Virus record (IMG/VR): IMGVR_UViG_3300042876_000313
Location: 1-64,000 of that record
Strand: one strand, 5' to 3'
Source of the DNA: a virus
DNA length: 64,000 nt
In this document: in pieces, positions 1 to 29,177 of the stretch
Numbering within the stretch: the stretch's first letter is position 1
Layout of the letters: each line of letters opens with the position of its first letter
The notes under the pieces: generated by a model
What the model was told of the DNA's origin: nothing
Seen by the model: the letters and a program-made list of their open reading frames with translations, nothing else
Databases searched by the model: none
Made by a program: the position numbers and the translations under genes

Positions 1-2175
1 AACGCCACGCAGATCAAAGCCCTTCGCAACCTGAATGAATGGGCTGCCGCCTCGCTCCTTGAGCAACGGCGCAAGTGGCAGACCTACCAGGATTTGGGGT
101 TGGATTCCAACATGATGTTGCGGGATCGGTTCTGGGCCTATATGAACCAGTTCGAGACTGGCGGCGAGTCGGTTGACAATCCCGTTACCCCGCCGTCCGG
201 TTCCCGTCTGATGGAGCGCCTGTCGTCCGGCAGCCGGCTATCGCGGATACTCCGCAACCCCGGCAACGCAGCCAAGGCGGCGGCCATCGCCATCTCCGAA
301 GTGTCAGCCCAAGGCGGTGTGGCCTGGGTGGACGCGGTTATCAACCGGGCCGTGGCCGGCAATCTGGCGACCGACTTCGAGCAACTGATGCAGGTTCTCG
401 CCCACCAAGTCATGCCCGCCAAGGCCGAGACTGCCGGGGTGAACTGGAAGGATGCCAATGACCCGGCCAATTTCTGGACGCCGCAGGAGATCGCCCATTC
501 CAATAAAGGTGTCGAGGCTGAGAAGATCGGTATCGCCCGGCGCAACCTCGTCCGCCTGACCGGCAACACTTGGGAGCAACTGATGACCGATTACTGGAAT
601 CGGTACACGCAATGGCTCGACGGCGGCAAGCAGGGCGAGCAACCGCGTTTTCTCAAGGATGACAAACAGCGCAACGCCTTGCTCCTGGCCGTGGCCACCC
701 GGACGAACTGGGCCGATTTCACCGTGCGCCCGCTCGCCACCCATGCCGGCGGTGCCCAGGAGGCGATGATGTACCTGTTCGGTTGGCCGATCTGGGGCGT
801 CCAAGAGATGCTGTCGGCCTTCGCCAAGCCGTCCAGTAAGACGGGTCGGCGCCTGCTCCCGGAGTCCGCCGACCTCGCCAACGTCTCGACGTTCATTGCC
901 TTGGCCATCCCATTAGCCATGCTCGCCTTGACCTTCCCAACGCTCCGCGATTACTGGGCTGAGAAGGCCAAGGGCTACCGCATCAAAGCTTTGACGCCCC
1001 GGTACTTCATCGAGAAGGGACTGGCCGGTGAGTCCGTTGACCCAATGGTGGCGACCAAGATCATGGCCAGCAGCATGGCCACGTTCATTCCGTTCTTCGG
1101 GTCGGTGATGAACAACTGGCTGGACAACGCTTCCCGCAACGGGTTCGACCTTCAACAGCAAATCCTCGCCTTGAACTTGGCCAATGACGCCTGGAACACG
1201 GTCAAGGAGGCCGGGGAAACCGGCGATCCGACGTTCTCCGCGCTCCGGTTCGCGTCCCGGTGGCTCCTGCCGGACGTGGCCCCCCGCCTGATTCCCAACA
1301 TCCTGCCCATCGAATCGGCCAAAACCCTGTCCGGCTCCCTCGAAAACCGTTCGGCCAATAACATCGCCGCCCAAGCTGCCGCCCTCGCCAACATCGAGAA
1401 CCGCCGATCCTCGACCGGCCAGGCCACCTTCCGCTACACCGAGGCCACGCCCCTCATCCGGGGTTGGATGGCCGCGATGGCGACCGGCGATGACCGCGCC
1501 CGCGCCGACTTCTTTGAACGCCTCGTCGCCCAGAAGCGCGAGGACATCATCGCCAAGACCCCGGAGATTGACCCCGGCCAAGCGGACACCGAGGCCCGCG
1601 CCGCCGCCCTATCCTCTCTCCGAACCCGCAACCCATTTGTCACCGCCTTGGGCCGGATGCCCACCGAGCAGGAATACGCTACGATGATGGGCAAGCTGAC
1701 CCCGGACGCCCGTGAGAAGTTGACGGCGTACATGGCCGGGTACGACCGGGCCATCCAGCAGGATTCCGGCGGGACGGCTACGATTCGCTCCTTTACCACT
1801 CCCGGCGGGGCTTCTGTCACCACGGCCCGCGCCTCCACGGCTGGCCCTGCAGGCTTCGGGGGCGGCGGTCGGCTCCCAAGTGTCGGCTCAGGCGGTCAAC
1901 GGCTGCCCAGTGCAGGCGTAGGCGCGGCGGCAGGCGGTTTAAGCGGTGGTCTGCCGTCCATTACCCGGATCGGCGGGACTTCCCCCCGGTTGACCCGGTT
2001 CAGTGTCGCCCGGCGCATTGCTGGCGTGGGCCGAGCTAAGCTTCCCCGACTCCGGTTGCCCGGCGCCAAGCTCCCGTCGCTGGCCGGTCGAGTCAAACGC
2101 CCGCGCCTGCCCCGGCGAGGTTTGAAAATGATTGCCGCGAAGAAACCACGGCTGCGGAGAACGACGCTCGCTTGA
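1..2175 (+). CDS. C-terminal part of a large internal virion / DNA-ejection protein (5' truncated by the window edge)
   Basis: Frame is open from base 1. Ala-rich helical protein ending in a Gly/Arg/Pro basic tail. The late operon at the other end of the window ends with ejection-type proteins, consistent with a circularly permuted genome. Function is inferred. Confidence 0.6.
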   Translation, partial: NATQIKALRNLNEWAAASLLEQRRKWQTYQDLGLDSNMMLRDRFWAYMNQFETGGESVDNPVTPPSGSRLMERLSSGSRLSRILRNPGNAAKAAAIAISEVSAQGGVAWVDAVINRAVAGNLATDFEQLMQVLAHQVMPAKAETAGVNWKDANDPANFWTPQEIAHSNKGVEAEKIGIARRNLVRLTGNTWEQLMTDYWNRYTQWLDGGKQGEQPRFLKDDKQRNALLLAVATRTNWADFTVRPLATHAGGAQEAMMYLFGWPIWGVQEMLSAFAKPSSKTGRRLLPESADLANVSTFIALAIPLAMLALTFPTLRDYWAEKAKGYRIKALTPRYFIEKGLAGESVDPMVATKIMASSMATFIPFFGSVMNNWLDNASRNGFDLQQQILALNLANDAWNTVKEAGETGDPTFSALRFASRWLLPDVAPRLIPNILPIESAKTLSGSLENRSANNIAAQAAALANIENRRSSTGQATFRYTEATPLIRGWMAAMATGDDRARADFFERLVAQKREDIIAKTPEIDPGQADTEARAAALSSLRTRNPFVTALGRMPTEQEYATMMGKLTPDAREKLTAYMAGYDRAIQQDSGGTATIRSFTTPGGASVTTARASTAGPAGFGGGGRLPSVGSGGQRLPSAGVGAAAGGLSGGLPSITRIGGTSPRLTRFSVARRIAGVGRAKLPRLRLPGAKLPSLAGRVKRPRLPRRGLKMIAAKKPRLRRTTLA

Positions 2176-2282
2176 CCGGCAAAATGTCCACCGTTTTGTC
2201 CGCCTGCCCAGCTTGATTACAAACCACTTGCGTTTATTCAGGCACGGTTCATTTCCAGTGATTTGTCCACCCGCCGCTCAGT

Positions 2283-2846
2283 TTATTTCTCAGCGGGGGT
2301 TGACATTGGAGCGGCGACCGCCTTCCTAAGCATCATAATTTTAGCGACACAAAACGCCGTGATATACAGCTTCATCCCCTCCGGGCGGTATTTAGACTTT
2401 CTTCGGCGAGCGGTGACGCTTCCAAAGCTCTTTATCAAAGTGTGCCGGTATTCGATGGCTTCTTTGTTCAGCCTTCGGAGTTCCCGCTTGTTCTTGGAGA
2501 CGTTATCTTTAAGCACTCTCCACCATTGGCGATGTGCCATGCTTTTGAATATGCGGGTAAGCCGTGTGTACTCAAGGTCAACCGCGTCTATTTTCTTGAG
2601 CTTGATCCCCATCCTTCTGCACAATTTTTCCTTTTCCATGTCTCGCTGCCTGACGGCTCTTAAATCGGGAGAATAATCGGTTGCTTGGTAATGGTGATCC
2701 CCTTGAAATTCCAACGCAAACCTGCGGCTTGGGAAAAAGAAATCAAGTTCAAGCCCTCGAAGCCACGGTGGACGGCAGTTCTTCTCGTATCGGAAATCCA
2801 CCATCAGGTTGATGTATCGCTCAAGAATTTGCTCGCCGTAACTCAT
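2283..2846 (-). CDS. PD-(D/E)xK restriction-endonuclease-fold protein (Vsr/DUF559-like)
   Basis: SYGEQIL...LELDFFFP..FALEFQGDHHY...RDMEKEKLC...GIKL motif series. ATG at 2846 (MSYGEQ) preferred. Confidence 0.75.
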   Translation of the reverse strand: MSYGEQILERYINLMVDFRYEKNCRPPWLRGLELDFFFPSRRFALEFQGDHHYQATDYSPDLRAVRQRDMEKEKLCRRMGIKLKKIDAVDLEYTRLTRIFKSMAHRQWWRVLKDNVSKNKRELRRLNKEAIEYRHTLIKSFGSVTARRRKSKYRPEGMKLYITAFCVAKIMMLRKAVAAPMSTPAEK

Positions 2847-2994
2847 GTTGCACCTTTGGGGAACCCCCGGCTTGGGGTGCAACACTCGCCCTTGTGGCGA
2901 TATGAAACCGTGAGGTTTTCCAAGCCGGGAGTAAATCTGACGTTATGTGTTGCACGGGATCAACGTCGCACTGGTTCTGCGATTCGTCAACCGG

Positions 2995-3081
2995 AAAATT
3001 AAAAGGGCGGCTGGTGTGCTTTCAGAGGTGTGAACAGTGACCGCACGAACCAACCGCCCCGCCAGCTTTCGCCGGCTAACT
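2995..3081 (-). ncRNA. Structured leader / small RNA: GCCGGC-GAAA-GCTGGC hairpin, then a long GGGCGGTTGGT...ACCAGCCGCCC stem ending in TTTT (terminator-like)
   Basis: Inverted repeats read directly from the sequence. Lies just downstream of the promoter at 3088-3116. Confidence 0.5.
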
Positions 3082-3087
3082 CGCAAG

Positions 3088-3116
3088 ACCATACCCCCCT
3101 TAAATCGGACTGTCAA
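3088..3116 (-). promoter_or_regulatory. Sigma70-type promoter TTGACA-N17-TATGGT
   Basis: -35 at 3116-3111, 17-nt spacer, -10 at 3093-3088. Overlaps the last pentamer of the array. Confidence 0.7.
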
Positions 3117-4071
3117 CTGCGCGTCACATTGCCGTTCCATGCCATTACCCGACGGGGCAATACATTACGGCACCCCGCCATTACCGCACGGGACCCTACC
3201 ACGCCCACACATTGCTTGACTTCACAGTGCTTTACTTCGCCGTTTCCGCGCCACTCCCGACCCCGCCTTGCCCTAACGGCGCTTGACCCGACGGCTCGCG
3301 GCGTCACCGACACCGTGCGCGACCACGCGCAACAATGCCTTGCCTTTGCTGTGCTTCACTCTGCTTTACCCAGACCCGACTTTACCACGCATCACCGGGC
3401 GTAACATAACCCCCGCGTCACTAGACCGCGCTTTGCCGATACCGCACGTCTCCCTACCCTACCCTACCTTACCCCGGCGCCACACTGCATAGCCACTGCC
3501 GCACTCTGCATTGCCTAACCGTTGCTCAACTACACCCTGCGACACCTCACCCAACCAGGACAGCACTCGACCATTCCACCGCTAGACGTGACGTTACATG
3601 TCGGTGCCAAAACCAAACAAGACCGAGCCAGTCGCAACCGCGCCATCGCAAGACCTCACCTTACCAACGCTCTGCTTGACCTTACTACCGCCCAACCAAT
3701 CTATGCCCCTCCGAAACCACGTTTTACCATTGTGCGCTACACCACTGCGTTACTTTGCTATACTATACTCCACCGACTCAGAACCACGCACAGCCTACGC
3801 TTGACGAGACGACACCATTCGCTGCCATGCCACTGCGCTGCCCCACCTGACGCCGCCACGCACAACCACAGCGACTCGCTACCGTACCGTTACTGCACAT
3901 AACTAGACTCTACCGATACCATACGAGGCGTCACCGTACCGCCGCAGTTCTGTTCATTGCCGTCGCATGACGACACCTCGCCTCACAACGCCATTACCCG
4001 ACCGCATAACGCCATACCAGCACTATACTTCACAAGTCCTTGCCCAAACATTGCCTTGCCCGTCCACGCCT
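3114..4071 (-). ncRNA. Pentamer-periodic non-coding array (NGY-NN units, GGY most common); candidate guide-RNA array of the adjacent Cas7-like protein (VIPR-like)
   Basis: Hand parse covers all 958 nt as 185 pentamers plus 33 single-base insertions. Position 2 is G in 182/185. Position 3 is C/T in 167/185 and never G. Positions 4-5 vary freely. Example (- strand 3242-3181): c GGCga AGTaa AGCac TGTga AGTca AGCaa TGTgt g GGCgt GGTag GGTcc CGTgc GGTaa. No long ORF on the sense strand. Confidence 0.85.
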
Positions 4072-4791
4072 TCACTCGTCCATGCGCTCGTAGGTGAAGC
4101 GCCCGTAAGATGCGTTGCGCCACTGGCCGAATCCCGACATCTGACCATATCCAAGCCATTCCTCGATCAACGCCTCGGCGTCCACCGCATCATCGCCCTT
4201 GCCAATCTTCTTGGACAGGCAGGTGATCGTGAACTCAAACGTCGCGCCGGCCAGCACCACTTCCGAACGCACCACCGTAACCCGTGGCCCCATCGCCGTC
4301 TCGGCCCGCAGCGAACGCTCACACAGCAGGACGCCGCTTTCCGAGCGGATGATCTTAGGCGGCAATTCCATGTCCGCCGCAATCGGCAACTGGATGACCG
4401 GAATGAAGCGCGGAAACACGAAGATGATCTGGTCAATCTTCGATTTGTACGCCGTGATGGACTTGCTCAGGGTGTCATCCGAAATCCGCAGCGCACCGCA
4501 GGCCGACTTGAAGAATCCCCGGATCATGTAATCTTCCAGGCAGACGAATTTCTCGTTGGGATCGCCGTCTTTCGGAATACTGGTGACGCCCCGCGCCAGC
4601 AGGTCGCTGCGCTTGAGCCGGGTAAAGCCGGTCGTGCCCGCTTCCTCCTTGTGTTCGGCGGTTTCCAATTCCTCCTTGCGCTTGTCGTCATCGGGGGCTT
4701 TGGACGCCACGAAGGACGCAAAGACTTCTTTGTTTTGGGGTTTCGTGCCGAGCATTGCTTCGGTCAACGTGAGTTTATACTTTAGCTTCAT
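4072..4791 (-). CDS. Stand-alone RAMP-fold, Cas7/Csm3/Csf2-like RNA-binding protein (239 aa; Vipr-like)
   Basis: N-terminal strand KYKLTLTEAMLG, helix DYMIRGFFKSAC, thumb hairpin ERSLRAETAMGPRVTVVRSE..G.TFEFTI and C-terminal Gly-rich loop GQMSGFGQWRNASYGRF are RAMP hallmarks. ATG at 4791 follows an A-rich leader and a CCCGCC/GGCGGG hairpin (4816-4832). Confidence 0.85.
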   Translation of the reverse strand: MKLKYKLTLTEAMLGTKPQNKEVFASFVASKAPDDDKRKEELETAEHKEEAGTTGFTRLKRSDLLARGVTSIPKDGDPNEKFVCLEDYMIRGFFKSACGALRISDDTLSKSITAYKSKIDQIIFVFPRFIPVIQLPIAADMELPPKIIRSESGVLLCERSLRAETAMGPRVTVVRSEVVLAGATFEFTITCLSKKIGKGDDAVDAEALIEEWLGYGQMSGFGQWRNASYGRFTYERMDE

Positions 4792-4975
4792 TTGTTTTGT
4801 GTGTTTTTGTTTATCCCCGCCGTCGTGGCGGGAAATCAGAAAAGAAAAATGATCGTCCAGTAATTCATACCTCGCCATCGGTAATGGAGTTGCAGGCTGC
4901 GTTTCCAATTCGCATCACCCGGCCAGTATTCAATCTTGAATCGCGGTCCTTCGATCATTTTGTGGGTTATAATGT

Positions 4976-5149
4976 TCACGGTCTGTAAACCCCGTCGCCC
5001 TCGTTAAATGCCTGCGACAGAAATTCCGGTTGCCCGTTCTGGCTTTTGATTGCGTCCTCTTGGATTTGTTTTATTATGACCAGAAGATCGTTTCGAGTGA
5101 CGCAAGGCCTTGCCTCCATATCTTCAAGCCATTGTTTTGGTGTTTTCAT
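4976..5149 (-). CDS. Small phage protein, 57 aa (not in ORF track)
   Basis: Hand translation MKTPKQWLED...LSQAFNEGDGVYRP*. The C-terminal motif recurs in small phage proteins. Starts right after the stop of 5152-5493. Confidence 0.65.
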   Translation of the reverse strand: MKTPKQWLEDMEARPCVTRNDLLVIIKQIQEDAIKSQNGQPEFLSQAFNEGDGVYRP

Positions 5150-5151
5150 AA

Positions 5152-5493
5152 TTACTCAATCCCTTTCGCTCTCCGCTGGTCACGCGCACGGATAATCAAA
5201 ACCTGCGCCTGCGACACCAGGTTCGCGGACGAATGTTCGACTTCCTCAATGCTCGCTCGCTGGACGTAGCAGTAGCCGCGCTGTCCAGAGATTATCCGGC
5301 CACCCGATTGGCTGGCCAATTCGCGGACGATTCGTTTTCCGGCCTCGCCGGTTCCGAGTTGGAGCTTTGAGCTAATCGTGCTGGCGAACACCCAAGGTTC
5401 AGGCGAGTCAATCAATAGCTGCTCCATCTGTTCGACCATTGACGCCGTCACTTTCGGGCGCGAAAACTGCAATTCAGGTTGGCACATAATCAT
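5152..5493 (-). CDS. Hypothetical winged-helix-like protein
   Basis: STISSKLQL...KRIVRELASQSGGRIISGQRGY resembles a wHTH with wing. Confidence 0.55.
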   Translation of the reverse strand: MIMCQPELQFSRPKVTASMVEQMEQLLIDSPEPWVFASTISSKLQLGTGEAGKRIVRELASQSGGRIISGQRGYCYVQRASIEEVEHSSANLVSQAQVLIIRARDQRRAKGIE

Positions 5494-5541
5494 GTCATTT
5501 TCCAGTTGTCAATCAACCGTTTGTGGTGGTAGGTTCCAGTT

Positions 5542-5892
5542 ATGAGAACCAAAACTGCGGTCGTCCGTCGTACCGAGCTTGAGAAAGCGTTTGCCCGTGA
5601 AGCTGGTATATCCGCCGAGAACGGCAAGCGTTTGCTCGCCACATTTTTCCGGCTCTTGTCCGGTTGCCTGCTCGACCGGAAAACCGTTTGCATGGGGCGC
5701 GTTGGCCGGCTGAATGTTTATCAGAAAGCCGCCCGCATCGGGCGCAATCCACGCCACCCGGATGATGAAGTGATTATTCCTGCTCATTGGGAGGTTCGCT
5801 TTGTTCTGCGCGGCCCGCTACGGGCGGAACTGCGGCGTATTCCGGTTGATGTGGATAGACCTTCCCCGGCCCGCCCAGATACAGAGCCGTAG
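5542..5892 (+). CDS. HU/IHF-family DNA-bending protein
   Basis: VGRLNVYQKAARIGRNPRHP..EVIIPAH.EVRF matches the HU beta-arm signature. Confidence 0.8.
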   Translation: MRTKTAVVRRTELEKAFAREAGISAENGKRLLATFFRLLSGCLLDRKTVCMGRVGRLNVYQKAARIGRNPRHPDDEVIIPAHWEVRFVLRGPLRAELRRIPVDVDRPSPARPDTEP

Positions 5893-7111
5893 TCTCTGCG
5901 TCCAAGTGGGTCAACAACTGCCTGATGTGATCCGTAGAAAGCCCGGCGGCCCGGCACTCAAATGCGTAGGTCACGCGCAGGCCGTGAAAGCAGCACTTGC
6001 GACTGTCCAACCCCGACCGCTTCACATAATCCCGAAACCGCGCCGAGCATAGCGTTCGGCTCTCGGTGTATCGCCGTTGTAATTCGCGCCAGACCCAACG
6101 CTCATGGTTGCGCTGGCCAATGATCTGCGGCATCAGTTCCTTGATCTGCGGCGGCATCGGGACGCATAGGCGCCGATCTTTTTTGTGGGTATAGACCAGC
6201 AAGTTCTTCCCGCCATCGTTAAACTCATTCGGAAGGATGGAATCCCATTCCAAGTTGATGCAGTCGTACATCCGCAGGCCGGCGTATCGAGCCAGGTACA
6301 TAGAACACTTGAACGCGAAATCAATCCGCCACAGGTCACGGTGCCGGTCCAATTCACTGACGGCCACCAGCCCAGCCTTGTCCCCGGTAACTTGAATCAT
6401 CGCCATTTTCTTTTCTTTCCGCGCCATGATCCGCTCAATGTAGCCCATGCACCGCTTAAATTCATCATCCGTCCACGGCTGCCTGTACCTCGGCTCCTTG
6501 GCTGAGATGGGCAGGGCGCGGGAATTGACCCGGCGCAAAATGCGGGCGATGTTGCCCATGACGTAGCCCTTGACGGCGCACCAGTCCAAGAACCGCCGAA
6601 TGACAACGTGATTCTGTTTCCGGTAGCTCATCCGGTGATCCTTATCCATGCCGTTGATCGCCTCGATTATGTGCTTTTCCTCGATGGAGCTTACCGGCAA
6701 CGTCAACAGATTGAATCGCCGGGCGAACAGTGAAACCTTGTAGATGTACGGCTCAATCGTGGTAGGTTGAAGTCCCTCGTTGCGGTCGAGGTGATCCCGC
6801 CAGGCTGCGATGCAGTCTGCGAAAGTCGGCTGGCGATCCATTATTTCTTGCAATCCCGTCTTGGTGATGGAGTCCGTGATTAAATCCGTGATGCGCCGTT
6901 TGATGTCCGCCGATTGCATAACCAACTCGATGTCGGCCTTGGCGTGCGTGTTCATCATTATCCATTGCACCCCCCGGCTGGTCAGCATCCGCAGTCGCCA
7001 ACCAGTTGCCTTGAAATAGACGAACGTGCGCCCGTCCAGTTCAAACGTCGGTCGCTCGAAAGATTTAGCTTCCGGCGCGTCAACTGGCTCAATGGTGGTT
7101 TCCTCGCTCAT
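5774..7111 (-). CDS. int: Tyrosine recombinase / phage integrase
   Basis: YAGLR (Arg), HKK (Lys), FHGLR (HxxR), LLTH and TTALY (catalytic Tyr), preceded by a SAM-like core-binding domain. Confidence 0.9.
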   Translation of the reverse strand: MSEETTIEPVDAPEAKSFERPTFELDGRTFVYFKATGWRLRMLTSRGVQWIMMNTHAKADIELVMQSADIKRRITDLITDSITKTGLQEIMDRQPTFADCIAAWRDHLDRNEGLQPTTIEPYIYKVSLFARRFNLLTLPVSSIEEKHIIEAINGMDKDHRMSYRKQNHVVIRRFLDWCAVKGYVMGNIARILRRVNSRALPISAKEPRYRQPWTDDEFKRCMGYIERIMARKEKKMAMIQVTGDKAGLVAVSELDRHRDLWRIDFAFKCSMYLARYAGLRMYDCINLEWDSILPNEFNDGGKNLLVYTHKKDRRLCVPMPPQIKELMPQIIGQRNHERWVWRELQRRYTESRTLCSARFRDYVKRSGLDSRKCCFHGLRVTYAFECRAAGLSTDHIRQLLTHLDAETTALYLGGPGKVYPHQPEYAAVPPVAGRAEQSEPPNEQE

Positions 7112-27852: not shown

Positions 27853-28073
27853 GAACTATTTTCAACTATTTTGTTTGGGGATTCCATCGTTCCAGCACGG
27901 GCAGTTTTGGCCGTCGTACTGCCAGATTCCAGAGCGCGAAACAACAATACGGTCGCACTCAGGAACAACCATAACCCCGTTAATGTACGTGCAATCTCCT
28001 GAAATCGTGGTCTTGATATTTCCCTTGCGAGTTAATTGCCATTTCGCGTGGCAACAAGTTTTGCAGCATTTAT

Positions 28074-28511
28074 TCATAGCAGTTTCCTCATCTCGCGCAC
28101 CAGCCGGCCAATGCGGCGTTCGGCTGATTTACCTCCCGCGTCATCGTGCTTCGATTTGATCGTCAGGGGATCGCCGCCGTCAACCGATTTGCCTTCCTCG
28201 ACGGCCTTCTGGTCAACTAGCAGCGGGACGAGTTCGCCAGCGAGTTCGGCCATTTTGTTGTGGGTTTGAAGGAGCGGCCAATGGGTTATCAAAACGAGTT
28301 TCATCTTGGCCGGGGCCGGGATGACCACGCAGCCGTCCCACTCAAAGTACGGAGGAATGGTTTCCCATTTCTGCCCCATCAGGTTCATGGCCTGAGCGAA
28401 CATCTCATCGTAAGCCTCCTGCTGAATCAGGCAGATGTTGGGTTGCTTGCCGTCCAGGTGCATTTTAATATTCACCAAGGCGAGTCGGAATTGTTCGAGC
28501 ATCAAGTTCAT
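28074..28511 (-). CDS. Hypothetical protein
   Basis: Operon packing with 4-nt overlaps. Confidence 0.55.
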   Translation of the reverse strand: MNLMLEQFRLALVNIKMHLDGKQPNICLIQQEAYDEMFAQAMNLMGQKWETIPPYFEWDGCVVIPAPAKMKLVLITHWPLLQTHNKMAELAGELVPLLVDQKAVEEGKSVDGGDPLTIKSKHDDAGGKSAERRIGRLVREMRKLL

Positions 28512-29177
28512 AAATTAAAATCCTCGGTCAGCTTTACGTTGTTCTTTGGCTGCTTTTTCTTCGGCATACCGCCGGTTTCTCGAAGCGGTCTTTGAGTCGC
28601 ACGGGGAATGACCAGCGCATCCATGCTCCACCGTCCAGATGCCCATAATCGCAGCGGCTTTCTGGTTTGGAACTTCGCCCTTCCATTGCGCCCCACAAGT
28701 GCAGTTCAAGTCGAGTTTCATAGTCTCCATTTCCTACCGCTGTAATGGACGTGCTTCACCGTGGCGATGGCGCGGTTTGCACCTTCCAACATCCATTGTC
28801 GTTTTGCTTGAACATCTGGGCCGACAGATTCCAGACATTCAGCCATCATGTCCGCTTGAAGATTAGCCAACTGGCCCAATACGAATTTCCGGTAATAAGC
28901 CAGCCGCTTGGTCTTGTGCTTGAGCGCGGGCGGGATCGGGATGGTTTTCAGGTTTGGGTTCATAGTTTCAATTTGTAACACCCCGACTTGCAGGCCGCAA
29001 TCCAGCGGGCGCGTTCGGCGGGGTTTTTGAAGGTGGTCGTTTCAATCGCCTTGCCATCGTCCCATTGGGTGATGTGCTGCTCGGTGATGTGAAATTCCCG
29101 GTGAACGTCAACACCCGGCCCGCCGTGGTCGCGGATGACTTTCTGGAAAACCAGACGGGCGGGTGTGACTTCGATGC

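What the first reader, a model, noticed from the sequence alone, without database searches (positions are those of the whole stretch)
3114..4071. Second-order punctuation: single-base insertions cut the array into 33 modules that almost always restart with GG
Seen: the 5-nt register slips by exactly +1, and never otherwise, 33 times (counting the base after the stop codon). Module sizes in pentamers, 5'->3': 5,5,5,6,4,5,5,4,7,7,4,6,6,5,4,4,7,6,4,7,5,4,7,5,8,5,7,7,6,7,5,7,6. These sum to 185 pentamers + 33 nt = 958 nt, matching the coordinates exactly. The first pentamer after an insertion starts with GG in 32/33 cases, versus about half overall. No two modules are identical. Random microsatellite decay would give both +1 and -1 slips and near-identical neighbours. 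Inference: the hexamers mark guide boundaries, processing sites or filament kinks, or record how units are added. A single module carries only 8-16 variable nt, so functional guides may span 2-3 modules.
Basis: seen in the sequence. Interest (0 to 1): 0.8.

Follow-up and report, generated by a model that had tools for sequence, protein, structure and literature searches.

The report
Punctuated VIPR guide-RNA array in phage
The five-base rhythm with regular one-base jumps is real. It is the "staggered" guide-RNA array of a phage VIPR system, a CRISPR-related RNA-guided DNA silencer first described in 2026 preprints, so it is a well-documented new example of a known kind rather than a new system.

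Summary
Confirmed. On the minus strand, 4071 to 3114, directly after a Cas7-like gene, lie 185 N-G-Y-N-N pentamers. The distance between successive invariant G's is 5 nt 154 times, 6 nt 33 times and never 4. The base before the G that opens a new register is G in 32 of 33 cases, against 40% elsewhere (Fisher 4e-10). Simulated random insertions parsed the same way give 0.44 +/- 0.08.

This is not a new kind of system. It is the guide array of a VIPR system (Vipr RAMP protein plus GGY/NN vrRNAs, bioRxiv 2026). It has the "staggered" architecture that the discovery paper covers in one sentence and one legend (fig. S18), without RNA data.

The same grammar holds in about 150 related loci: 1,821 +1 steps against 96 -1 steps, and GG at 95-96% of junctions. 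The four reference SUSP1 vrRNAs show no steps.

Modules behave as autonomous cassettes. The junctions therefore most likely delimit short guides of 4-8 protomers (8-16 specified nt). The idea that guides span 2-3 modules found no support. Targets, host and RNA ends could not be determined.

The scan has noted VIPR arrays many times before on other DNA (196 notes, at least 127 genomes).

The parts
3114..4071 (-). Staggered vrRNA array: 185 N-G-Y-N-N units in 33 modules of 4-8 units. Each module opens with GG after a one-base register step.
   Evidence: HMM parses and register-free spacings of 154x5, 33x6 and 0x4. Module starts (first G of GG, window coordinates): 4070, 4044, 4018, 3992, 3961, 3940, 3914, 3888, 3867, 3831, 3795, 3774, 3743, 3712, 3686, 3665, 3644, 3608, 3577, 3556, 3520, 3494, 3473, 3437, 3411, 3370, 3344, 3308, 3272, 3241, 3205, 3179, 3143. 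It is the only such array in the 76.6-kb genome: score 211 against 11 for the next best. No Rfam family matches, and it folds no better than shuffles (z -0.01).
4072..4791 (-). vipr gene, encoding a Cas7-like RAMP protein of 239 aa from the ATG at 4791. The frame stays open to 4908, and there is an alternative ATG at 4876.
3371..3411 (-). Module 25, the longest at 8 units. Its NN code is TA TA CC GA GT AA CG CT, followed by extra base G.
   Evidence: This module was used for the target search, which gave no exact match in IMG/VR.
3088..3116 (-). Promoter-like site TTGACA-17-TATGGT. Its -35 hexamer overlaps the last unit of the array.
   Evidence: This is a consensus scan only, with 10 of 12 positions matched. 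Function is not shown. No terminator-like site lies between the vipr stop codon and the array.

Best explanation
What it is. The region is the guide array of a phage VIPR system. The Cas7-like Vipr protein encoded at 4791-4072 is transcribed together with, or just ahead of, the array.

Known mechanism (from the published SUSP1 and P. fulva systems). One Vipr protomer binds each pentamer, hides the conserved G-G-Y bases and presents the two variable bases. These pair with double-stranded DNA, skipping every third target base.

What differs here. The array has the "staggered" architecture. There are no 3' tails, spacers or ribozymes between guides. Instead one extra G, giving (YNNNG)n + G, shifts the register by +1.

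Inferred mechanism. At each junction the invariant G of the old register is followed at once by the invariant G of the new one. In the old register a G therefore sits where the pyrimidine pocket of the next protomer would have to take it. That pocket excludes purines in the solved Vipr. The old filament would then stop and a new one start one base later. Under this model each module is a separate short guide of 4-8 protomers, about one turn of the filament, specifying 8-16 target bases. The 958-nt array would carry 33 different guides.

Shown here:
- the sequence grammar;
- its conservation across the clade;
- the cassette behaviour of modules;
- the RAMP fold of the protein.

Inferred or unknown: the stop-and-restart mechanism, whether the RNA is cut at the junctions, and what the guides target.

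Confidence. I put about 0.9 on the locus being a VIPR staggered array. The 0.6 given for this explanation applies to the whole statement, including junctions as boundaries of separate guides.
For: Identity as VIPR:
- The protein has a Cas7/Csm3 fold and a G-loop GxG[D/Q]WR shared with the SUSP1 Vipr.
- The pentamer array abuts the gene.
- The published description of VIPR and of staggered arrays fits.
- The element is a phage record with direct terminal repeats and an integrase next door.

The grammar is real and clade-wide:
- Window: 33 +1 steps against 0 -1 steps; GG at 32/33 junctions.
- 78 viral or phage loci: spacings 5 x 5717, 6 x 1012, 4 x 65; GG 96% at junctions against 25% elsewhere.
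- 70 metagenome loci: 4479, 809 and 31; GG 95%.
- SUSP1 control: four vrRNAs of 13-16 units with no steps.

Modules behave as units:
- Relatives show a conserved end consensus nGCAA-H|GG[C/A]AW.
- Related arrays are mosaics of shared and unique modules.
- Of 714 pairs of occurrences of an identical module, 88 differ in both neighbours and 175 in one.
- Array indels are multiples of 5 nt or sums of (5n+1).

The stop model fits the sequence:
- G never occupies the Y position inside modules (0 of 154).
- The paper reports a Y pocket that sterically excludes purines, and that vrRNA length sets filament length.
- The extra base before GG is the least constrained position (17.7% substitutions against 1.7% for the invariant G) and is depleted in G.

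No alternative signal: no ribozyme or other Rfam family, and no excess structure.

The variable dinucleotides have the composition of codon positions 1-2 of the sense strand (r 0.55; other frames at most 0.29). This fits the published finding that skipped bases fall on wobble positions.
Against: - No RNA data could be obtained, so separate processing or separate filaments are not shown. The paper itself states that only the ribozyme and single-vrRNA architectures were confirmed by sRNA-seq.
- Modules are shorter than any characterised vrRNA (9-16 repeats). Seven of the 33 specify only 8 bases, which is little for a unique target.
- In this window the module ends are only weakly conserved. AA is enriched in the first and last units (16/66 against 12/119, p 0.017).
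- No natural target was found for any module, so the 1-nt skip rule is untested for this clade.
- One IMG/VR locus (L108) matches module 27 exactly, and module 28 at 10 of 14 bases in the contiguous register. This is weak (about 0.03 expected by chance at that offset), but it points towards reading through a junction.
- No conserved accessory (vap) gene was found next to vipr here.
Confidence: 0.6

Rival explanations
1. Continuous filament with hinges. The array, or long pieces of it, is coated by one filament. The extra base is bulged out at each junction as a hinge or strain relief. Functional guides then span two or three modules.
For: - A single module specifies only 8-16 bases.
- Mean module length (5.6 here, 6.0 in the clade) is close to the 5-6 protomers per turn of the solved filament.
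- A full GG only at junctions could compensate for the cost of a bulge.
- One two-module match, 24 of 28 bases in the contiguous register, occurs in L108.
Against: - Relatives have conserved, non-variable dinucleotides at both ends of every module. Read-through would force a fixed AAxAW into every target about every 18 nt.
- Identical modules occur with different neighbours, and arrays gain and lose single modules.
- Module sizes show no compensation between neighbours: lag-1 r -0.15 (p 0.25), and the cumulative deviation is no smaller than in shuffles (p 0.73). Among 33 relatives, 6% reach p 0.05. The steps therefore do not keep a fixed non-integer phase.
Confidence: 0.2
2. Neutral scar of array growth. 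The +1 steps have no function of their own. They are left by the process that adds or recombines cassettes, for example joins made at a GG.
For: - Local duplications of three units exist inside modules (TRF period 15 at 3208-3238 and 3622-3651).
- Arrays are mosaics.
- The extra base is the fastest-evolving position.
Against: - The steps are +1 in 1,821 cases against 96 -1 cases across about 150 loci down to 36% protein identity.
- The GG is kept at 95-97% of junctions.
- Module sizes are bounded. A neutral scar would decay, and it would not exclude -1 or +2 steps.
Confidence: 0.07
3. A feature of double-stranded DNA. The motif would be kept in phase with the DNA helix (mean period 5.18 nt, twice that is 10.36 bp) for a DNA-wrapping protein, a centromere-like site or curved DNA.
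For: The mean period of 958/185 = 5.18 nt is close to half a helical turn. This was my own first idea.
Against: - The motif is strictly strand-specific, and the adjoining protein is an RNA-binding RAMP.
- Published VIPR arrays are transcribed and bound as RNA.
- SUSP1 arrays have a strict 5-nt period.
- There is no phase-keeping between modules.
Confidence: 0.02
4. Decaying microsatellite, or an artefact of how the registers were chosen.
For: None beyond the low complexity of the region.
Against: - An equal-penalty HMM finds no -1 steps.
- Random-insertion simulations give GG at 0.44, not 0.97.
- The invariant G is kept in 98% of 185 units.
- All modules are different.
- TRF sees almost no simple tandem repeat.
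Confidence: 0.01

Closest known systems
VIPR systems with "staggered vrRNA arrays" (bioRxiv 10.64898/2026.04.26.720920, main text and fig. S18 legend)
   Same: - A lone Vipr RAMP gene in a phage, followed by a tail-less run of pentamer repeats.
- Successive guides are offset by one nucleotide, and the end of one marks the start of the next.
- My reading of the junction is that the old-register G doubles as the first G of the next GGY. This matches the paper's wording "1 nt overlapping positions".
   Different: - The paper gives no numbers, no junction consensus and no RNA evidence for this architecture. It states that only the other two architectures were confirmed by sRNA-seq.
- The figure itself is not available to me, so identity with the drawn example rests on the legend.
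- Here the repeat is N-G-Y-N-N rather than G-G-Y-N-N, the modules are 4-8 units long, and the module ends are nearly free of conserved bases.
Type II VIPR of Escherichia phage SUSP1 (KT454805.2; vipr 28474-29061, four vrRNAs)
   Same: - A Vipr protein of about 20 kDa with a GxGxWR G-loop.
- GGY/NN pentamers on the strand of the gene.
- A phage-borne locus.
   Different: - SUSP1 vrRNAs have 13-16 units in one register with no steps. Each is followed by a conserved tail of about 60 nt with a pseudoknot, and they are separated by spacers.
- Protein similarity is confined to the G-loop (hhalign E 5e-4, probability 31%, 29 columns).
- SUSP1 has D177, which reads the first G. This clade has Q there, in at least 90% of 40 aligned homologues, which fits its relaxed first G. 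This last link is inference.
Class 1 CRISPR backbone filaments (Cas7, Csm3, type VII Cas7) on crRNA
   Same: - One protomer per fixed number of guide bases, with bases flipped out periodically by a thumb.
   Different: - The period is 6 nt with one base flipped, not 5 nt with three hidden.
- Guides are cut out of repeat-spacer arrays by Cas6 or Cas5 at hairpin repeats.
- Here no other cas gene and no CRISPR repeat lie within 4 kb.
Ribozyme-interspersed VIPR arrays (same preprint, fig. S19)
   Same: Many guides are packed into one transcript without long tails.
   Different: Those arrays separate guides with hammerhead ribozymes. Here no Rfam family matches at E up to 1 in 2000-6000, and the guides are contiguous.

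Membership tests
[not shown]
   [not shown]
VIPR system | Sequence relationship to an experimentally characterised Vipr (SUSP1) | tested here: inconclusive
   hhalign of the 40-sequence profile against the SUSP1 protein (KT454805.2 28474-29061) aligns only the C-terminal G-loop: 29 columns, E 5e-4, probability 31%. The aligned residues are the ones the structure paper names (C173, D177, W178, R179). tblastn does not link the two.
VIPR system | Tandem pentamer repeats with conserved GGY (or a related consensus such as YNNNG) alternating with variable NN, next to vipr | tested here: met
   185 units, with G in 98% and Y in 90%, beginning one base after the stop codon. The paper lists YNNNG among accepted variants. 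Arrays follow the homologue in 78 of 82 viral or phage loci and 70 of 80 metagenome loci.
VIPR system | Not part of a CRISPR-Cas locus; mostly viral or proviral | tested here: met
   The record is a virus genome of 76,616 nt with direct terminal repeats. A tyrosine integrase lies at 5774-7111. No cas family appears among the neighbours scanned, and no CRISPR RNA family in 2000-6000.
VIPR system | An accessory vap gene beside vipr | tested here: inconclusive
   No neighbour of the window's vipr is conserved in 160 related loci. The downstream 200-aa ORF is a Vsr-like or homing-endonuclease-like nuclease with only 3 homologues besides its own record. In gut-phage relatives a Cro-like HTH gene sits just upstream of vipr. 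The paper says loci "typically" have a vap, so this is not a strict requirement.
VIPR system | vrRNAs are expressed and co-purify with Vipr | not testable with these tools
No RNA data were available.
VIPR system | NN bases match natural DNA targets by the 1-nt skip (NNx) rule | tested here: inconclusive
   - No match above chance in the phage's own genome or in related loci.
- Module 25 (16 specified bases): 0 IMG/VR matches.
- Module 27 (14 specified bases): 96 scattered matches, as chance predicts.
- The host is unknown.
- Indirect support: the NN composition resembles codon positions 1-2.
Staggered vrRNA array (sub-architecture of VIPR) | Successive guides offset by one nucleotide, with the end of one marking the start of the next | tested here: met
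   33 steps of +1 and none of -1. GG at 32 of 33 junctions, meaning the invariant G's of the old and new registers are adjacent.
Staggered vrRNA array (sub-architecture of VIPR) | No tail, spacer or ribozyme between guides | tested here: met
   Modules are contiguous (957 nt in 33 modules). No Rfam match. No excess secondary structure.
Staggered vrRNA array (sub-architecture of VIPR) | Each module is released or bound as an individual vrRNA | not testable with these tools
   The fig. S18 legend calls them processed vrRNAs, but the text says this architecture was not among those confirmed by sRNA-seq. Only comparative evidence for modular units was obtained here.

The most novel reading that the evidence does not exclude
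The single extra G is a built-in phase stop that sets guide length without any RNA-cleavage signal. A purine is forced into the pyrimidine pocket of the next protomer, which ends one filament, and the next filament nucleates one base later. One transcript of about 1 kb would then carry 33 independently registered mini-filaments. Each is about one helical turn long and specifies 8-16 bases. Together they would form a multivalent "beads on a string" silencer whose specificity comes from many short guides rather than one long one.
Probability: 0.2. Interest if true: 0.6.

Novelty: new member of a known kind. Interest (0 to 1): 0.3.

Why it matters
VIPR is a months-old class of RNA-guided DNA binders. 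Its staggered arrays are the one architecture for which the literature gives neither numbers nor RNA evidence.

This locus, together with about 150 relatives, supplies a precise and testable grammar:
- (YNNNG)n + G;
- steps of +1 only;
- GG at 95-97% of junctions;
- modules mostly 5-7 units long.

It also supplies 33 exact junction coordinates against which RNA ends can be mapped. If the extra G really ends one filament and starts the next, it would be a very compact way to define guide length. That would be useful for multiplexed VIPR tools, and it bears on how RAMP filaments measure their guides. As a discovery it is modest: the system and the architecture are already published, and this scan has met them many times.

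Tried and rejected
I could not fetch the contig of the closest homologue (P0002, 87% identity) to compare module gain and loss in a near relative.

Host:
- No close relative of Vipr or of the terminase exists in genome contigs.
- The window has no tRNA, and a tblastn of an 843-aa ORF against the phage collection found nothing.
- Without a host, pangenome target searches with mismatches were not possible.

Target searches:
- Modules of at least 6 units against the phage's own genome and 82 loci gave 9 hits with up to 1 mismatch, against 15-34 for shuffled controls.
- Module 25 gave 0 matches in IMG/VR.
- Module 27 gave 96 scattered matches at about the chance rate. Only L108 also matched module 28, at 10 of 14 bases in the contiguous register.
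- Junction-spanning contiguous patterns for modules 9|10 and 32|33 gave 0 matches. This is uninformative, because exact matching was required.
- A 9-unit module conserved in nine gut-phage arrays gave 37 matches. All were in unrelated AT-rich contigs, and 13 were copies of one widespread phage, so I judged them chance.
- 434 family modules against family loci showed no enrichment (2 exact against 6-7 for shuffles).
- An apparent enrichment for skip 1 (104 against 13) is an artefact. That database included the loci fetched by the pattern.

Ideas dropped:
- DNA-helix phasing (10.36 bp), see rivals.
- A rut site or Rho sponge: the plus strand is C-rich, but its motif is RC, not YC.
- TRAP-like triplet repeats, type III toxin-antitoxin RNA, and a reverse-transcriptase template. 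None fits the RAMP gene and the published VIPR grammar.

Indel boundaries: positions in pairwise array alignments were too ambiguous to test against junctions, because gaps slide in repeats. Only the gap lengths were informative.

Full report
**The observation**

The feature is on the minus strand. ORF 4072-4908(-) ends at 4072, and the G-rich array runs from 4071 down to 3114. G autocorrelation peaks at lags 5, 10, 15/16, 21, 26, 31 and 36, which is the signature of a 5-nt period that slips forward by one base every few units.

I parsed the array with a cyclic five-phase HMM, trained by EM with equal penalties for +1 and -1 slips.
- The global parse gives 32 internal insertions and no deletions.
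- One position is G in 98% of units. The next is C or T in 90% and never G. The previous one is G in 50%.
- A local version that chooses its own ends gives 33 insertions and none deleted over 4085-3116.

Without any register, the spacing between successive invariant G's is 5 nt 154 times, 6 nt 33 times and never 4. The base before the G that follows a 6-spacing is G in 32 of 33 cases, against 62 of 154 after a 5-spacing (Fisher p 3.9e-10).

I tested that with 60 synthetic arrays built from the real internal units, with a random base at a random slot, parsed by the same HMM. They show GG at 0.44 +/- 0.08 of junctions, with a maximum of 0.62.

Further checks:
- Sizes confined to 4-8 have probability 7e-16 under a geometric null.
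- All 33 modules differ; the best pair is 62% identical.
- This is the only such array in the 76.6-kb genome.

**What it is**

A sister note of this scan on the same stretch called it VIPR-like. A literature search then found the system. VIPR stands for Viral Interference Programmable Repeat (bioRxiv 10.64898/2026.04.26.720920 and .720927).

From those papers:
- A small ancestral RAMP protein, Vipr, polymerises on vrRNAs made of tandem YNNGG (GGY/NN) pentamers, one protomer per repeat.
- It hides the GGY bases and presents the NN bases.
- The NN bases pair with double-stranded DNA while every third target base is skipped.
- The systems are mostly phage-borne and silence competing elements.

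I tested membership directly.
- Reference system: I located it in phage SUSP1 (KT454805.2: vipr 28474-29061, vap 28031-28471).
- Profile comparison: this aligns only the G-loop. GFGQWR here matches GVGDWR there, which are the residues D177, W178 and R179 that the structure paper assigns to the two G's and the pyrimidine.
- The match is short (E 5e-4, probability 31%), so I rate sequence relationship to the reference as inconclusive and fold plus context as met.
- Gene start: the gene most likely starts at the ATG at 4791, giving 239 aa. Homologues of 195-205 aa begin there.

**The punctuation is the published "staggered" architecture**

[quoted passage not shown] The legend says individual vrRNAs derive from 1-nt overlapping positions, and that the end of one marks the start of another. 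The text adds that only the ribozyme-interspersed and single-vrRNA forms were confirmed by sRNA-seq. The two later preprints that mention VIPR say nothing about staggering.

My parse gives that wording a concrete meaning.
- Only the first unit of a module has GG (97%). Later units have G at that place at about 25-58% here and about 25% in relatives.
- The clade's repeat is therefore N-G-Y-N-N, which is YNNNG in the paper's list of variants.
- The GG at a junction is the invariant G of the old register followed by the invariant G of the new one. That G is the shared, "overlapping" nucleotide.
- The array can be written as (YNNNG)n + G, repeated 33 times.

**The grammar is a property of the whole clade**

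The Vipr protein has 444 homologues in the protein collection. I fetched 80 viral and 80 metagenome loci with homologues of 33-48% identity, plus two GenBank phage records.

| Set | Loci with an array next to the gene | 5-spacings | 6-spacings | 4-spacings | GG at junctions |
|---|---|---|---|---|---|
| Viral and phage loci | 78 of 82 | 5717 | 1012 | 65 | 96% (25% elsewhere) |
| Metagenome loci | 70 of 80 | 4479 | 809 | 31 | 95% |

- Modules are mostly 5-7 units long, with a mode of 6.
- In relatives the junction has a clear consensus, nGCAA-H|GG-[C/A]-A-[A/T]. The last and first units of each module are close to constant, like short handles.
- In this window that consensus has faded to a GG, a pyrimidine-biased extra base (T14, C10, G6, A2) and a mild excess of AA in terminal units (p 0.017).
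- As a control, the same HMM on SUSP1 recovers the four published vrRNAs (13-16 units, one upstream and three downstream) with no step at all.

**Modules are autonomous units**

- Related arrays are mosaics. In one group of eight arrays, runs of shared modules are interrupted by inserted, lost or replaced whole modules.
- Among 714 pairs of occurrences of an identical module, 88 have different neighbours on both sides and 175 on one side.
- Within L005 the same module recurs in different contexts.
- Indels between related arrays are multiples of 5 nt or sums of (5n+1) nt.
- In near-identical modules, substitutions are rarest at the invariant G (1.7%). They are intermediate at Y (5.2%) and at the N positions (7.1-7.8%), and highest at the extra base (17.7%).

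**No other signal separates the modules**

- No Rfam family matches at E up to 1, so there are no hammerheads.
- The RNA folds no better than shuffles (z -0.01).
- No terminator-like site lies between the gene and the array.

**How it most likely works**

Shown: the grammar, its conservation, the modularity and the fold.

Taken from the papers: one protomer binds each repeat, the Y pocket excludes purines, and vrRNA length sets filament length.

Inferred: at a junction the old register would have to place a G in the pyrimidine pocket. Inside modules G never occupies that position (0 of 154). The old filament would therefore end, and the next would begin one base downstream on a full GGY.

Each module would then be a guide of 4-8 protomers, about one turn of a filament that has 5-6 protomers per turn. 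It would specify 8-16 target bases, roughly the information content of a bacterial operator. Whether the RNA is also cut there is unknown.

The Q in place of D177 in the G-loop, kept in at least 90% of the 40 aligned homologues, may explain the relaxed first G. That too is inference.

**Rivals**

- Continuous filament with bulged hinges, and guides spanning modules. In its favour are the small information per module and one 24-of-28 two-module match (L108). Against it are the constant terminal dinucleotides in relatives and the free reshuffling of modules.
- Strict phase-keeping, whether against the DNA helix (2 x 5.18 = 10.36 bp, my first idea) or against filament strain. This is contradicted. 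Neighbouring module sizes do not compensate, and cumulative deviation is no smaller than in shuffles.
- A neutral growth scar. This does not explain +1-only steps and 95-97% GG across proteins as low as 36% identical.

**What I could not settle**

- Targets. No module matches the phage's own genome or related loci above chance.
  - IMG/VR scans gave nothing or chance-level scatter.
  - The apparent enrichment is circular.
- Host. It is unknown.
- Indirect evidence on targets. The NN dinucleotides have the composition of sense-strand codon positions 1-2 (r 0.55; other frames at most 0.29). This agrees with the published wobble-skip finding but is not proof.
- RNA data. None were available, and the nearest relative's contig could not be fetched.

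**Verdict**

The multi-module-guide idea is not supported.

The system and the architecture are already in the literature, and this scan has recorded VIPR arrays 196 times in at least 127 genomes, several of them filed as staggered. This is therefore a new member of a known kind. It adds a quantified junction grammar and a testable stop-and-restart model.

Noticed in passing
window 2283-2885 (-); conserved start at M14, about 2846: The co-oriented ORF after the array is a nuclease-like protein with the motif ELD...EFQGDHH.
- PHROG hits are to HNH or homing endonucleases.
- The AF2 model (pLDDT 77) weakly matches the I-Bth0305I homing-endonuclease catalytic domain, Vsr and a DUF559-type protein (E 0.016-0.56).
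- Besides its own record it has only 3 homologues, and it is absent from all 160 related VIPR loci.
- It therefore looks like a free-standing, possibly mobile nuclease rather than a conserved VIPR accessory gene.
   Followed up: partly
window 3088-3116 (-): A promoter-like TTGACA-17-TATGGT site whose -35 hexamer is formed by the last unit of the array and faces the nuclease ORF. This is a consensus match only.
   Followed up: no
L014, L017, L044 and others (gut-phage relatives), about 0.3-3 kb upstream of vipr: In many relatives vipr sits in the immunity region. The order is integrase, a CI-like HTH repressor on the opposite strand, a Cro-like HTH gene, then vipr and the array on the Cro strand, with an SSB further downstream. 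This suggests expression with the early lytic operon. The Cro-like gene could be the HTH-type vap of these systems.
   Followed up: partly
alignment A1, residues 249-255 of P0001; SUSP1 Vipr residues 173-179: The G-loop is GFGQWRN in this clade and CGVGDWR in SUSP1. The Asp that reads the first G in SUSP1 is Gln here, in at least 90% of the 40 aligned homologues. This parallels the clade's relaxed first G, N-G-Y instead of G-G-Y.
   Followed up: partly
window 3114-4071, order of modules: Module size rises along the array, from a mean of about 5.1 units in the first 16 modules to about 6.1 in the last 17 (Spearman 0.37, p 0.03). Local duplications of three units occur inside modules 17 and 30 (TRF period 15), and module 23 holds GGTAG three times in a row.
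   Followed up: no
window 5774-7111 (-) and the whole record: A tyrosine integrase lies 0.9 kb upstream of vipr on the same strand. The record is a complete 76.6-kb phage genome with direct terminal repeats. It has no close relative in the phage, genome or viral collections.
   Followed up: partly
L005 4111-5027: This relative has a very regular staggered array. Nearly every module ends in AGCAAT, AGCAAA or GGCGAA. Modules ending in GGCGAA are followed by GGCTT in 4 of 5 cases, which hints at two junction types or fixed two-module blocks.
   Followed up: no
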